DNA from: Eledone cirrhosa | Lineage: Eukaryota | Reading direction: 5' to 3' | NCBI GenBank assembly: GCA_964016885.1 | Contig: OZ024754.1 | Coordinates: forward strand, 5,766,001-5,830,000 | Length of the DNA stretch: 64,000 bases | Translations under genes and position numbers: made by a program | Shown here: positions 6,269 to 60,330 of the stretch, piece by piece | Position numbering within the stretch: position 1 is the stretch's first letter | Layout of the letters: every line of letters starts with the position of its first letter | The notes under the pieces: model-generated | Database searches by the model: none | Told to the model about the DNA's origin: nothing | The model's input: only the letters and a program-made list of their open reading frames with translations

Positions 6269-6348
6269 CGTTATTCCGGGTTGAATCGGAGGTAACCACA
6301 GTAAGTAAGGTACTCAATACATAGCAGAGTATAACAGTTTTAATATAG

Positions 6349-6405
6349 ATGAGATTCTACAGGACTAGAACTGTTTCATTCATTAGAAATCATCAGGAAT
6401 CTCAT
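6349..6405 (-). ncRNA. Type I hammerhead ribozyme motif (family C)
   Basis: Minus strand: ATGAGATTC-CTGATGA-T TTC TAAT GAA T-GAA-ACAG ttctagtc CTGT-A-GAATCTCAT; 9-bp stem I, GUA cleavage triplet. Confidence 0.85.
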
Positions 6406-6429
6406 GATTCCTGATGATTTCTAATCTCT

Positions 6430-6478
6430 GATTCCTGATGATTTCTAATGAATGAAACAGTTCTAGTCCTGTAGAATC
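6430..6478 (+). ncRNA. Type I hammerhead motif (family C, inverted second arm)
   Basis: GATTC-CTGATGA(6435)-stem II-GAAA(6454)-CAG..CTGT-A-GAATC. Confidence 0.8.
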
Positions 6479-7076
6479 TCATCTATATTAAAACTATATA
6501 TATATATATATATATATACATATCTATATTATATGTGTGTATATATATATATGTGTGTATGTGTGTGTGTATATACACACCGGATCCATATATTGTTACA
6601 TATACGCACACAAATAAAAACCTAAAAGTACATTCCTAACTAGTTGCTATACACACACAGACACGCGCGCGCTCATATTACACAACACACATATACACAT
6701 AAACACACAGACACACATACATGCACACACACACGCACACACATACACACATACATGCACACACATGGAAAAAATAAATTCAATAAATAATAAAACAAAA
6801 AAATTAAAACAAAAAAGCAAAAACATGCAACAGTAATGTAAATACGAAGAAATAATTTACAAGTTAGATAAACATTGTCAATAAACATAATGTATTACAA
6901 CAACTACAGATTAAATAACAAACAAACTTGCATATGAAAGCTGACCAAAATATATTGTTTCCTATTGTAAATTAATTATTGATTTCTAACTCAAATCTAT
7001 ATATTTTTAGTTGAAGTTTGTGAATTGGTCGAGTCATCTTTAAGGGAAGTGCATTTTGTTAGCACACACTTTTATA

Positions 7077-7614: not shown

Positions 7615-7853
7615 AGTAATAGTAATAAATTTGAAGACTAAAATCCAAAGAGGGCTCGATAAGGATAAATATATATCAGATATATAAGAACCGTAGAGCA
7701 AATATTTATTAAAATAACAGATTAAAGTTTAAGCAAAGAATCGCTGCTTTCACCCTTAACGGAATCTTCTGAATATATATCTTCAGAAGATCCCGTTAAG
7801 GGTGAAAGCAGGGATTCTTTGCTTAAACTTCAATCTGTTATTTTAATAAATAT
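7615..7853. mobile_element. (TA)n-flanked mini-element family A with variant hammerhead (copies at 14826-14990, 31272-31500, 32482-32920, 35825-36002, 48428-48455, 56292-56421)
   Basis: Near-identical repeats; inverted arms 7702-7773 and 7782-7853; CAGAAGA-TCCCGTTAAGGGT-GAAAGCA. Confidence 0.8.
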
Positions 7854-8447: not shown

Positions 8448-9464
8448 GTTTTATTGCTGTTCTTTTGACATGTGCTTGCGATGTTGTTTTTTTTATAATT
8501 GTTATTATTTTTCTTGTTATGATTGATATTGTTGATGTTATTATTGCTATTGTTTCATAGACAACACAGCATAGTGATCGAATTCCATTCATAACACTAA
8601 TAAAGCTTTGAGCGCCATCTTTCCCTCATAGAATAGTTTATTTTGGTAGAAGCTATAGAGCATCGAACAACATACTTTGTGCCATATCGTCTTGTACCAC
8701 CGTACCAGGCGTGGTTGGTCTCTTGAAGTTTGTTAACAAAAATATTAAATCAAAGAGTGAAATTAGCATTAATTCTACTGTTATGTCCTTATAGATAAAG
8801 GAATACAATGCAACAGTGTAATAGCAATATAATCGAAACAAACGATAATAACCACATGTAATGGAACAACAATCTTTTAAGAACCAACAAATGTTGGTTT
8901 GTCCCCTCACATTTTTAAGGCAAATGAGGGCCCTGACTCCACCGCCCTGCGTGAAAGTATTGTTCTCAAAGAATAATAATACCAAAATCTCGAAGATTCT
9001 ATATTATGTGAGGTAAAGCCTTTGCTGCGAAAATACAATAGTAAACGTAAATATAGAGTAATGTAAATGCTAAATGGTTAATATCAGCTGTTCTTCCTGT
9101 CACAGACAATACCAATCGTTCATTTTATAGGGTTTCCCAAATCAGAATCAGAGTTACCAAATTCTAACAATAAGGGACTACATTGGCATTTTTTTATATT
9201 TATAATTAACCACGTGGCATGATTATATACACACCTCCCCATTCCTGCCGCCGAATTGTATTTAAGAAATGTCTGTATTAATAATCAATATTTATATTAG
9301 GGTTGGTGATTAGTAGAAGCAGTATTATATGCTATTAAGTTACGCCACTTTACCTAGTGAATTAATATCACACTAGTATCTGTTTTGTTATAGATTTTAT
9401 GAAATAAATGGCACTCAAGTACTGGCGACTGGTAATCGACTGAAAATATCCTCCATTATCGTAT

Positions 9465-9645
9465 AATTGGCAGTATCGGTAGAGGGTCGGGCATGCTTTC
9501 CAGCATAGTTACGTCCCTTTACGATCTGAGTTCAAATCCCGCCGAGGTTAACTTTGCCTTTCATCCTTACGGGGTCGATTAAAATAAAGTACCAGTAATA
9601 CACTGGGTACTTGCTGGCCTTGTGCCAAAAGTAGAAACAATTATT
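9465..9645 (+). mobile_element. Major tRNA-derived SINE, octopus-type. About 20 copies or fragments, e.g. 3725-3890(-), 13601-13820(+), 19220-19545(-), 23058-23187(+), 24703-24800(+), 27114-27340(-), 29610-29782(-), 29965-30149(-), 36836-37013(-), 46455-46678(+), 62240-62415(+)
   Basis: TGGCAGTATCGGTAG A box, GAGTTCAAATCCC B box, conserved central GGTTAACTTTGCCTTTCATCCTTACGGGGTCGATAAAATAAAGTACCAG, tail CTTGTGCC..TAGAAACAATTATT. Confidence 0.92.
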
Positions 9646-9667
9646 GTATAGACTTTATAGGCAAATA

Positions 9668-32485: not shown

Positions 32486-32723
32486 ATAATAATAAATTTG
32501 AAGACTAAAATCCAAAGAGGGCTCGATAAGGATAAATATATATCAAATAAAATATAAATATATAATATTAATATAAATAATATTTATATTAATATAAATA
32601 TATAAAAAATTTGAAGATCCCGGTAAGGGTGAAAGCAGCGATTCTTTGCTTAAACTTTAATCTGTTATTTTAATAAATATATATATACACATATATATAT
32701 ATATACATATACCATATATATAC

Positions 32724-32831
<108 letters not shown>

Positions 32832-33130
32832 TTATTTATTTATTAAAATAACAGATTAAAGTTTAAGCAAAGAATCGCTGCTTTCACCCTTACCGGGATC
32901 TTCAAATTTATTATTATTACTATATATATATATATATATGTAGATGACGGGTTAAATAGGGGATAACCACAGTAAGTAAGGTACTCAATACATAGCAGAG
33001 TAAAAGTAATTTAATATAGAAATGGCTTCTACGGGACTAGAACTGTTTCATTCGGAGGAAATCATCATTTCCTCCGAATGAAACAGTTCTAGTCCTGTAG
33101 AAGCCATTTCTATATTAAATATATATATAT

Positions 33131-33240
<110 letters not shown>

Positions 33241-33437
33241 CGAAGGAAATGTGGTAAGGAACCAGGTGGACCATAACGCACCAAAGTACTCAATACTTGA
33301 GGTAGTAGAGTGGGTAATAGGAACCAGTAAGACCCCGACAGCTGAGCTCAAGCCGTTTCGACGGCTAATTCTGGACTCTAGAGTCCAGAATTAGCCGTCG
33401 AAACGGCTTGAGCTCAGCTGTCGGGGTCTTACTGGTT

Positions 33438-33492
<55 letters not shown>

Positions 33493-35291: not shown

Positions 35292-35433
35292 TATAATACA
35301 TTATGAAGAGAGAAGAAACATTAGATATAATTAGTAATAAGATATATCATACCTAAGCTGCTTCTATAGTCCCCAGGTATGATACATCTTATTACTAATT
35401 ATATCTAATGTTTCTTCTCTCTTCATAATGTAT

Positions 35434-35437
<4 letters not shown>
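35292..35437. repeat. Inverted repeat, 63-bp arms, 20-nt spacer
   Basis: 35292-35354 versus 35375-35437, one mismatch. Confidence 0.92.
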
Positions 35438-35824: not shown

Positions 35825-35901
35825 ACAGATTGATTTTTTTTAGTTTCAGAAGATCCCGTTAAGGGTGAAAGCAGGGATTCTTTACTTAAACTTTAATCTG
35901 T
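35825..35901 (+). ncRNA. Variant-core hammerhead (family A, most complete copy)
   Basis: ACAGATT..AGTTT-CAGAAGA-T CCC GTTAA GGG T-GAA-AGCA..T(G/A)CT-T-AAACT..AATCTGT; U4A core change. Confidence 0.65.
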
Positions 35902-35999
35902 TATTTTAATATATATTTTCTCTACGGTTCTTATATATTTGATATTTATTTATCCTTATCGAGCCCTCTTTGGATTTTAGTCTTCACATTTATTATAAT

Positions 36000-36045
<46 letters not shown>

Positions 36046-36497
36046 TAGGTAGTATGGGGGAATACTGACAAAAATATATGTTTTTTCACATCGCATAACC
36101 AGTCTCGGGTGCAGATCGATACTGGAGTCGGGTCCATAACTCCTATGGGTCACATTGAGCCAATTGTCTGTGAAACGCGCGTAATAGATATTTTTCATAT
36201 GTAAACAAAACTTCCTCGTTTTTTTGTAGTATATAGATATATATATAAATATATATATAACGAAGGAAATGTGGTAAGGAACCAGATGGACCATAACGCA
36301 CCAAAGTACTCAATACTTAGGGTAGTAGAGTGGGTAATAGGAACAAGTATGACCCCGAGTGCAGAGCTCAAGCCGTTTCGACGGTTAATTCTGGACTCAG
36401 AATTAGCCGTCGAAACGGCTTGAGCTCTGCCGTCGGAGCCATACTTGTTCCTATATATATTTATATATATATATTTATGTTTATATATATATATGTT

Positions 36498-39610: not shown

Positions 39611-39700
39611 GAGATGTATATACACGCACATATATTTACACACACAAAATATATATATATATATATACACGTCAAAATGTATATATATGTATATATATGA

Positions 39701-39746
39701 TTTCTGATGATTTCTCCCGAATGAAACAATTCTAGTCCTGTAGAAC
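39701..39746 (+). ncRNA. Hammerhead motif (family C variant)
   Basis: TTT-CTGATGA(39704)-T TTC TCCC GAA T-GAA-ACA..TGT-A-GAA. Confidence 0.72.
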
Positions 39747-39758
39747 CCATTTCTATAT

Positions 39759-39862
<104 letters not shown>

Positions 39863-42567: not shown

Positions 42568-43083
42568 TTTCTAATAAACTGAAGAATCAAATATCAAAAT
42601 TCGTATCGAATATCGGTGAAGGAGAAGATCTTATCAAGTGCCAAAGATCTTCATCCGATGACAATCAAGAAATGATGAAACAAGCGTAGGCTTTATATTC
42701 CGACATTTCGTGAGTTTTGATGATTTTTCTAGCTTGTGGAATGAAGAGGAATGTGTCTTTACTGGGATGACATTTCTTCTGGCAGAGACACACATTGCAA
42801 CTGAGTTCTTTTAGATGAAAATATATATATATAAGAACGAGTAGGACCCCGACGGCTGAGCTCAAGCCGTTTCGACGGCTAATTCTGGACTAAATGAAAT
42901 TTTTTATCCTGGTATATCATTTTATCCAGGATAAAAATTTTCATTTAGTCCAGAATTAGCCGTCGAAACGGCTTGAGCTCAGCCGTCGGGGTCCTACTCG
43001 CTCCTATTACCCACTCTACTACCCTAAGTATTGAGTACTTTGGTGCGTTATGGTCCACCTGGTTCCTTACGACATTTCCTTCG

Positions 43084-56677: not shown

Positions 56678-57145
56678 TAAACAATTAAGTTAAAAGTGTA
56701 CATCCACATATGTATACTGAAATACTAGTATGCATATAAATACACACACGTATACATATGTACATGTACCGAGTTTTTCACTGGACACTTTACTGTGAGT
56801 GTCCAGCTAGTCTGTATGTAACCAAACAGACAAACCGGGTTTTAGAGTCATACGGGTTTTCAAGGAAACACCTTTCCTCTATTCTCCAGAGAGCCAGCCA
56901 GGAATATTGGACTAGTTTCGATGTTATTACATCTCTGGGAGAATAGAGGAAAGGTGTTTCCTTGAAAACCCGTATGACTCTAAAACGCGGTTTGTCTGTT
57001 TGGTTACATACAGACTAGCTGGACACTCACAGTAAAGTGTCCAGTGAAAAACTCGGTACATGTACATATGTATACGTGTGTGTATTTATATGCATACTAG
57101 TATTTCAGTATACATATGTGGATGTACACTTTTAACTTAATTGTT

Positions 57146-57147
<2 letters not shown>
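56678..57147. repeat. Near-perfect inverted repeat, about 210-bp arms, with a hammerhead 3' half in the 50-nt spacer
   Basis: 56678-56887 versus 56938-57147, one mismatch seen; spacer minus strand GA-GATGT AATA ACATC-GAA-ACTAGT-C. Confidence 0.92.
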
Positions 57148-57408: not shown

Positions 57409-57752
57409 TAATTAAAACGATGAATAAAAACAAAGAACAAGTTCCTTATATTAAAAAAATCATCATTTTACGATCGTTTCTAGGATATATATGCGTGTTG
57501 GTATGTATATCATATAGATCTATGTAAAAATTTTACAAACTATGAGAGGAAATATACATATACATTATTTCTGAAGACAGCATATATATGTGAAGGTATG
57601 TATATTTCCTCTGATAGTTTGTAAAATTTTTATATAGATCTATATGATATACATACCAACACACATATATCCTAGAAGCGATCGTAAAATGATGAATTTT
57701 TTAATATAAGGAACTTGTTCTTTGTTTTTATTCATTGTTTTTATTAATTTAT
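57403..57752. repeat. Inverted repeat, about 157-bp arms, CTGAAGA core-like motif in the spacer
   Basis: 57403-57560 versus 57597-57752 with several mismatches; spacer CTGAAGA-CAGCATATATATGT-GAAG. Confidence 0.88.
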
Positions 57753-60096: not shown

Positions 60097-60261
60097 ACAA
60101 AGAAAGTATGGTAAGGAACCATATGGACCATAACGCACCAGAGTACTCGATACTTAGGGTAGTAGAGTGGGTAATAGGCAAAGAGTCAGGACCTCGACGG
60201 CTGAGCTCCAGCCATTTCGACAGCTAAACGTCCGGAGCTCAGCCGTCGGGGTCTTGACTAT

Positions 60262-60330
<69 letters not shown>

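What the first reader, a model, noticed from the sequence alone, without database searches (positions are those of the whole stretch)
33317..33442. Perfect 126-bp palindrome; family B always lacks the 5' half of its ribozyme
The arms are exact and share private changes (CAGCTGTC, CTTACTGG). None of about 11 family B loci retains CUGANGA. Each begins in, or folds back near, the presumptive long stem II (also 36340-36452, 42834-43000 and 60175-60265). Inference: cDNA folds back on the stem II hairpin and self-primes, replacing the catalytic core with antisense sequence, so inserted copies are disarmed.
Basis: partly seen in the sequence, partly recalled or inferred. Interest (0 to 1): 0.75.

Follow-up and report, generated by a model that had tools for sequence, protein, structure and literature searches.

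The report
Penelope run-off palindromes, promoter inside ribozyme
This mirror-image stretch is one of tens of thousands of stub copies of a Penelope-type jumping gene whose two arms both stop at one fixed spot inside a predicted self-cutting RNA, likely because the element's transcript begins there and two reverse-transcriptase copies run off its end, which would make the open question of how these elements rebuild their ends testable.

Summary
The 126-bp palindrome is real, but its 'private' changes mark a subfamily, and family B does not always lack the 5' half. It is the 3' end of a Hydra-clade Penelope-like element. An intact copy of the same subfamily exists, and 4,220 genomic matches carry a U3-A8 core (UUGANAA) that a CUGANGA search cannot find. 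Arms do not fold back on stem II. Both arms stop at one position (+1) in loop II, at TATA/initiator-like motifs: 57 of 66 short arms stop there, against 0 of 33 long copies on their second pass. Thirteen of 17 copies where an ORF piece rejoins the pLTR join at +1; the other four join at the predicted ribozyme cut. A second family shows the same cliff 30 nt below TATAAATA and keeps its core. Likely mechanism: two cDNAs, primed from both ends of a (TA)n break, run off the mRNA 5' end and are joined head to head; long copies use a template with no end at +1. The scan has already noted two-armed insertions, twin hairpins and this ribozyme variant elsewhere in this genome; I saw no note of the +1 run-off. 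No RNA data were available.

The parts
33119..33238 (.). (TA)n target tract, left (approximate ends, a few interruptions)
33237..33377 (-). Tail-bearing arm, element positions +1 to +141; inferred cDNA primed at start site 2
   Evidence: matches L274:4848-4988
33237..33316 (-). 80-nt tail, present on one side only; in full-length copies it runs on into the ORF
33283..33297 (-). First of two similar hairpin motifs 79-80 nt apart; the second lies beyond site 2 and exists only in the ORF-side copy
   Evidence: lead from scan note e1-8804728
33317..33442 (.). Exact 126-nt palindrome (the finding)
33378..33381 (.). 4-nt junction insert CTAG, not element sequence
   Evidence: long copies read TTT before +1
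33382..33442 (+). Tailless arm, +1 to +61; inferred cDNA primed at start site 1
33382..33382 (+). +1: A of an initiator-like motif inside loop II, the shared stop point of both arms (mirror position 33377)
   Evidence: initiator consensus recalled
33392..33427 (+). 3' half of the hammerhead: stem II 3' strand, GAAA, stem III with palindromic loop, predicted cut after 33422, stem I 3' strand
   Evidence: fold of the long copy; coordinates
33441..33489 (.). (TA)n target tract, right

Best explanation
The palindrome is a stub insertion of a Hydra-clade Penelope-like retroelement whose two arms stop at one fixed position in loop II of its hammerhead, likely because two cDNAs, primed from the two ends of a cut (TA)n tract, ran off the 5' end of the element's own mRNA and were joined head to head. 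Shown: the element's identity by motifs, the two 3' end sites (+61 tailless, +141 tailed), the cliff at +7..-4, the independence of arm lengths, joins of ORF pieces to +1 and to +42, and read-through of +1 in long copies. Inferred: +1 is the transcription start (TATA-like motif at -29/-31, initiator-like TTAGTC/TCAGTC); the RT binds near the 5' end and starts only 61 or 141 nt from it; the missing 5' half of the ribozyme is simply never transcribed in that copy. Rarely the RT jumps from the run-off end to a downstream point of the mRNA. Long and tandem copies come from a template with no end at +1 (ribozyme-cut monomers that are circularised or jumped end to end, or multimers).
For: Full-length copy of the same subfamily, L274, with a 786-codon open frame bearing RWR, DKT, CxCX5C, VIY..YIG and CxxC/CxH (clade features). 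In 96 tail-anchored insertions, 57 of 66 arms that reach +7 stop at +7..-4; the stop rate is 0.108 per nt there, 0.006-0.008 downstream and 0.002 at -9..-60; inverted arms behave alike. Genome-wide, 27,951 matches reach +1 and 8,680 go four letters further. Two other public runs show the same step in summed depth (one may be the assembly's own sample). Tail arm longer 31, tailless longer 36, even 10; by 8 nt or more 6 vs 13; in long inverted insertions the ORF arm can be tailless or tailed. Of 66 tail-to-ORF copies, 17 join an ORF piece to a pLTR on the same strand: 13 at -4..+4, 4 at +40..+42, none elsewhere; their own upstream ends never pass the same limit. ORF sequence follows only the 5' pLTR, so these templates were coding RNAs that begin at +1. 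Of 38 long copies, 33 reach +7 again and none stops at +7..-4 (Fisher p 2e-18 against 57/66). Family A: 37 of 46 stop at +7..-4 of an A lying 29-33 nt below TATAAATA (8 of 9 long copies; one CATAAATA), 0 of 9 stop at -5..-60. An anole PLE protein cuts and extends both strands and starts at two internal sites (PMC11167929).
Against: No RNA evidence for a start at +1. Family B's TATA-like motif is weak (TATTTAAA, TATTTATT, TATTCATT) and was spotted after the cliff. An extra G from a cap is not shown: 5,420 of 19,271 non-continuing matches (28%) and 23 of 64 sampled arms, many explained by the partner arm. Family C shows only a weak cliff (9 of 32). My first version, a constant 10-15% chance of jumping at each pass, was refuted by the second-pass count. 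A subfamily with a mismatched C3-A8 core amplified well (1,567 matches) and ribozyme mutants still insert in vitro, so cutting may not be needed. A weak helix (-3.2 kcal/mol) ends at +5. Samples are the first matches along C1 and C2, not random draws; end points from local alignment are uncertain by a few nt at palindromic joints; later central deletions could blur arm lengths.
Confidence: 0.65

Rival explanations
1. Same RNA end at +1, but the second arm is made by one cDNA snapping back on itself at the run-off end (self-priming), not by a second cDNA.
For: Recurrent joints such as CTG|AGTCC fit a 1-3-bp hairpin primer. Paired arms nearly always share the subfamily segment: 53 of 66 compared pairs differ by 0-2 letters, and most of the rest look like mis-paired matches. 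PMC3846280 reads junction palindromes of rotifer PLEs as self-priming, on an antisense template.
Against: The tailless arm is longer in 36 of 77 pairs, by 8 nt or more in 13 against 6, and by hundreds of nt in L072 and L112. A tail cannot be copied from a tailless first strand. The same joints occur in both orientations.
Confidence: 0.15
2. The RT stalls at RNA structure near +1..+7 (the weak distal helix of loop II or a tertiary contact) on an RNA that extends further upstream.
For: The 3' strand of a predicted helix spans about -4..+5; stops are spread over about 11 nt.
Against: The helix is worth -3.2 kcal/mol, while stems III and II are passed at a low stop rate. 0 of 33 long copies stop there on the second pass. 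Family A has its cliff at a TATA-defined A in a different place relative to its ribozyme.
Confidence: 0.08
3. The RNA end is made by processing, for example at a 3' splice site: the U-rich tract plus AG at +1/+2 fits an acceptor in families A, B and C.
For: In D. virilis Penelope the intron ends at the 5' end of helix I (PMC4209133), as the AG does in family A. The sequence before +1 is U-rich.
Against: No constant exon sequence lies upstream of the joints. 8 of the 13 ORF-to-+1 joins keep the AG plus 1-4 matching upstream letters, which splicing would remove.
Confidence: 0.07
4. One reading: the cDNA folds back on stem II and self-primes, replacing the core and disarming the copy.
For: About nine in ten arms lack the 5' half. 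A few ends fall at +12..+17, at a small local hairpin.
Against: The predicted product was seen 0 times. Ends lie in loop II. Long copies pass through. Family A has a 4-bp stem II, the same palindromes and an intact core.
Confidence: 0.03
5. A DNA MITE with terminal inverted repeats, or an assembly artefact.
For: Short, palindromic, high copy number, in (TA)n.
Against: One-sided tail, variable inner joints, an autonomous RT-endonuclease partner with the same ends, tens of thousands of diverged copies, and a fold-back contig in another run (X5 record 19).
Confidence: 0.01

Closest known systems
Hydra clade of C-terminal EN+ Penelope-like elements, e.g. Hydra-1_Obim (Craig et al. 2021, PMC8557442; passages, section 11, supplement part 2 of 59)
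   Same: RT then GIY-YIG, DKT, CxCX5C linker, no CCHH, CxxC/CxH, (TA)n targets, hammerhead in the pLTR, inverted 5'-truncated copy and one-sided tail.
   Different: Unit about 3.5 kb (tandem spacing) against 'generally <3 kb'; RWR for RWK; tail 80 nt against 30-40; U3-A8 core with a loop II of about 37 nt, while the Hydra hammerheads listed there have CUGANGA cores and short loops; its ribozyme differs from that listed for Hydra-1_oBim. No fixed 5' cut-off is described in the parts I read.
U3-A8 hammerhead variant of Schistosoma Cercyon PLEs (Cervera and de la Pena 2014, PMC4209133; parts 1-2 of 4)
   Same: U3-A8 core pair, long helix II, G10.1-C11.1, palindromic loop III, many single or opposed motifs from truncated PLEs.
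   Different: Here stem III is a stable 6 bp and loop II holds the inferred promoter, so the mRNA would start inside the ribozyme.
PAc (Poseidon) in vitro mechanism (Frangieh et al. 2024, PMC11167929; parts 1-2 of 4)
   Same: Both strands cut and extended, two internal RT start sites that define the tail, binding near the pLTR-ORF junction.
   Different: That work does not address inverted copies or the 5' end point, and found no RNA reads ending at the ribozyme site.
Palindromes at inverted pLTR junctions in Adineta vaga Penelope elements (Arkhipova et al. 2013, PMC3846280; passages)
   Same: Head-to-head pLTRs with junction palindromes, optional tail, TATA and initiator-like motifs in the pLTR.
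   Different: Read there as self-priming on an antisense template; the counts here favour two sense-templated cDNAs ending at +1.
Retroviral minus-strand strong-stop DNA and U3-located poly(A) signals; L1 twin priming (all recalled, not read)
   Same: Works like it: priming near the 5' end, run-off at the RNA end, then a jump; a processing signal that is complete only in the 3' repeat; two primers from one target site.
   Different: Target-primed, no tRNA primer or integrase; both primers copy the same stretch, giving a duplicate inverted arm. Not a member of these families.

Membership tests
Hydra-clade PLE | Single ORF, RT with C-terminal GIY-YIG | tested here: met
   YRDDG and VIY..YIG read in P0001; Pfam gave no hit, so this rests on motif reading
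Hydra-clade PLE | DKG changed to DKT; RWK motif | tested here: met
   SDKTG present; RWR in place of RWK
Hydra-clade PLE | CxCX5C linker; no CCHH; CxxC and CxH around the E and N residues | tested here: met
   CNCPDRSIC; one C between VIY and YIG; CNLC..EE and N..CKH
Hydra-clade PLE | Insertion into (TA)n | tested here: met
Hydra-clade PLE | Canonical hammerhead in the pLTR | tested here: inconclusive
   Type I fold present, core is the U3-A8 variant
Hydra-clade PLE | Placement in the Hydra clade on an RT tree | not tested
   No named reference proteins fetched; homologues were unnamed
Neptune-clade PLE | CX2-5CxxC linker and CCHH motif | tested here: not met
   my early Neptune guess was dropped
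Type I hammerhead ribozyme | Three stems around the core, G10.1-C11.1, NUH triplet | tested here: met
   Minimum-energy fold of L274:4795-4898 gives the three-way junction, though z is only -0.58
Type I hammerhead ribozyme | Core pair 3-8 with free position 7 | tested here: met
   TTGA[G/T/A/C]AA in 29 of 84 distinct long copies; 47 of 84 are CTGAGAA (mismatched pair), a share inflated by my searches; genome-wide 4,220 against 1,567
Type I hammerhead ribozyme | Self-cleavage | not testable with these tools
   Indirect only: 4 of 17 joins at +40..+42
DNA MITE | Fixed terminal inverted repeats, constant interior, DNA transposase partner | tested here: not met
   One-sided tail, variable joints, RT partner
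Non-LTR retrozyme | Tandem non-coding units, each with a whole hammerhead | tested here: not met
   Stubs hold half a ribozyme; long units code for RT; definition

The most novel reading that the evidence does not exclude
This element's promoter sits inside its own hammerhead and splits its life cycle in two. The capped mRNA carries only half a ribozyme at its 5' end, folds that half into an off hairpin, and yields dead-end palindromes. Ribozyme-cut monomers, closed into circles or jumped end to end, yield the full-length and tandem copies and so rebuild the pseudo-LTR. The joins at +42 would be genomic fossils of a PLE hammerhead cutting in vivo, and the joins at +1 fossils of a strong-stop-like jump by a telomerase-related RT.
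Probability: 0.35. Interest if true: 0.8.

Novelty: new variant of a known kind. Interest (0 to 1): 0.6.

Why it matters
How PLEs form inverted and tandem repeats, how they regenerate their pseudo-LTR, and what their hammerheads do are stated as open in the papers read (PMC2377424 Discussion; PMC8557442; PMC11167929). Here tens of thousands of copies give nucleotide-level predictions: an RNA start at +1, RT starts at +61 and +141, a cut at +41/+42, and two classes of template. An intact ORF of the same subfamily exists, so the published in vitro assay can test all of them. The element itself and its inverted structure are of a known kind.

Tried and rejected
Rfam found no hammerhead among the 150 best of 366 matches shown. 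A search for CTGANGA 4-34 nt before the 3' half gave 20 matches; those I viewed are flanks or junction filler, not a shared upstream sequence. One DNA query covered the wrong side of locus L080; its loci served as extra samples. Neptune assignment dropped. Cap-derived G: inconclusive. A constant jump chance at each pass: rejected. Short tandem re-copies just upstream of +1: 0 of 61 arms in the unbiased sets, though single cases exist (L011, window 6411-6435). A 'ruler' of fixed cDNA length: rejected, since arms that start 80 nt apart end at the same place. The secondary peak at +41..+43 among short arms is weak: 8 of 194 against 2.7 expected, p 0.007 after the fact; one is an alignment artefact and two sit at a small palindrome; a stall at the foot of stem III explains it equally. 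No RNA holder listed; contigs cannot show RNA starts. Literature searches listed no paper on a fixed 5' run-off point in PLEs; Arkhipova 2006 was not read, Lunse 2017 is not held, and the preprint's supplements were not seen, so prior description cannot be excluded.

Full report
Observation. Window 33317-33442 is an exact palindrome of 126 nt inside a (TA)n tract. An 80-nt extension (33237-33316) follows one arm only. Eleven related loci lie in the window, none reaching the 5' half of the ribozyme. The variant letters are not private: 40 of 40 scored genomic candidates match the arm exactly and 31 have an inverted partner. The host looks like an octopod by recalled likeness of its SINEs and by the scan's notes; I did not test this.

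The parent element. Walking upstream gave long copies. L274 (G000:C1:11224001-11233500) is a full-length copy of the finding's own subfamily: inverted tailed arm, pLTR plus tail, a 786-codon open frame, tailless pLTR. The protein reads RWR, DKT, YRDDG, CxCX5C, VIY..YIG with one cysteine between, and CxxC/CxH. These are the features given for the Hydra clade (PMC8557442 section 11), whose members insert into (TA)n and include an octopus family. Pfam gave no hit and I built no tree. An inverted truncated copy with a one-sided tail is the known PLE structure, and junction palindromes were noted in rotifer PLEs.

The ribozyme. Long copies fold into a type I hammerhead: 5-bp stem I, core UUGAGAA, an 8-bp stem II with an internal loop, a loop II of about 37 nt, GAAA, stem III with a palindromic loop, and a cut after GUC (z -0.58, so the energy alone is unremarkable). 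Position 7 takes all four letters across subfamilies while the rest is fixed. U3-A8 is a described variant (PMC4209133). Exact matches: 4,220 TTGANAA-type and 1,567 CTGAGAA-type 5' halves, 53,660 3' halves.

Where copies end. I number from the A of AGTCC (+1). From the first 100 listed matches to a tail pattern (41,665 in all) I analysed 96; two lay in L274, one was not fetched and one did not align. Tail arms stop at 0.006-0.008 per nt from +61 to +8, 0.108 per nt from +7 to -4 (57 of 66) and 0.002 from -9 to -60. Seventy-seven have an inverted partner, 57 of them aligned to exactly +61, and these arms show the same cliff. Genome-wide, 27,951 matches reach +1 and 8,680 continue four letters. 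Summed contig depth in two other runs steps up at +1 and down after +141 (not a copy number, and one run may be the assembly's sample).

Not a stem II fold-back. That model predicts an inverted arm joined to the native loop; none was found in 1.47 Mb of loci. The tail arm is longer in 31 pairs, the tailless arm in 36, and by 8 nt or more in 6 against 13. In long inverted insertions either arm can carry the ORF. This fits two cDNAs, one from each end of the break, starting at +61 and +141, in line with two-strand cutting and two start sites in vitro (PMC11167929). I reached this reading; scan notes then showed the same idea for other families in this genome.

What +1 is. It is the A of TTAGTC or TCAGTC, with a TATA-like run starting at -29 or -31 (consensus and spacing recalled). 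Family A, an independent control from the same loci, has TATAAATA 29-33 nt above an A at which 37 of 46 arms stop, with 0 of 9 stopping in the next 56 nt; there +1 lies before stem I, so the core is kept. Family C is weaker (9 of 32). A cap-derived G is not shown. A splice acceptor at the same AG is possible on sequence but fits the joints poorly.

Fossils of the template. The tail runs on into the ORF in 391 matches. I examined 66 (of 71 in hand; five dropped as duplicates or inner array units; only one unit per array was fetched in the second batch). In 17 an ORF piece of 61-818 nt is joined on the same strand to a pLTR: 13 at -4..+4 and 4 at +40..+42, none elsewhere; L405 is one more at +1 by eye. 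Their upstream ends never pass the same limit: 7 of 7 that reach +7 stop by -3, and 2 of 2 that reach +42 stop there. ORF sequence follows only the 5' pLTR, so the templates were coding RNAs beginning at +1 or at +42, and the RT went from that end to a downstream point (or the RNA was closed there). +42 is the predicted cut, but also the foot of stem III, and joins beyond about +43 are hard to detect in tailless arms. In contrast, 33 long copies reach +7 a second time and none stops at +7..-4. This rejects a stall at structure and also my first idea of a fixed jump chance. Long copies need a template with no end at +1.

Model. Shown: the end points and joins above. Inferred: transcription starts inside loop II; the RT binds the twin hairpins (the second exists only in the ORF-side copy) and starts 61 or 141 nt from the 5' end; both cDNAs run off and are joined, here with four extra letters. 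The 5' half of the ribozyme is missing because it is not transcribed in that copy. An RNA starting at +1 is predicted to pair +12..+27 into an alternative hairpin that hides GAAA. Ribozyme-cut monomers, circles as proposed in PMC4209133, or multimers give the long copies. Against a need for cutting: a C3-A8 subfamily amplified well and ribozyme mutants insert in vitro.

Novelty. The element is a new member of a known clade and its inverted structure is known. The fixed run-off point inside the ribozyme, the two classes of template end and the second-pass contrast did not appear in the papers I read or in searches, nor in the scan notes shown (only the top eight per look-up are listed). PMC2377424 states that no mechanism for pLTR regeneration is obvious. 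Papers seen: PMC8557442 passages, section 11 and supplement part 2; PMC4209133 and PMC11167929 parts 1-2 of 4; PMC3846280 and PMC6765202 passages; PMC2377424 passages and Discussion; bioRxiv 10.64898/2026.07.22.740005 part 1 of 5, supplements unseen. All RNA-level steps are untested.

Noticed in passing
window 33009-33120, 6336-6495, 39700-39770: Family A: a second hammerhead-bearing family in (TA)n with a canonical CTGATGA core, the same tailed/tailless palindromes, and a canonical TATAAATA box about 30 nt above its 5' cliff; 6411-6435 shows a short tandem re-copy at the 5' end.
   Followed up: partly
window 32607-32909, 7702-7853, 35845-36051: Family C: a third such family; its core position reads CAGAAGA in long copies and its 5' cliff at an initiator-like TTAGTT is weak.
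   Followed up: partly
L274:4859-4874: The motif AGC(C/T)GTC occurs twice, so the stem III 5' strand can pair with either copy; in an RNA starting at +1 the off pairing is predicted.
   Followed up: partly
L112-L140: An abundant subfamily has a mismatched C3-A8 core (1,567 matches), a natural control for whether cutting matters.
   Followed up: partly
L399: At least three tandem units of 257 nt (+1 to 113 nt past the tail) with the same joint: a small RNA circle, repeated jumps, or later duplication.
   Followed up: no
L411-L414; G000:C1:437200356-437210968: Tandem arrays of four full units spaced about 3.53-3.54 kb; these could supply ribozyme-cut monomers.
   Followed up: no
L398, L445, L452: Three ORF-to-pLTR joins share AAG before +2; untemplated additions or a short unknown leader.
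   Followed up: no
window 56678-57147, 57420-57735, 2316-2591, 35292-35437: Further long inverted repeats of other families, perhaps more PLE stubs.
   Followed up: no
window 9457-9652 and about 18 more loci: A roughly 190-nt dispersed repeat that resembles an octopus SINE (recalled).
   Followed up: no
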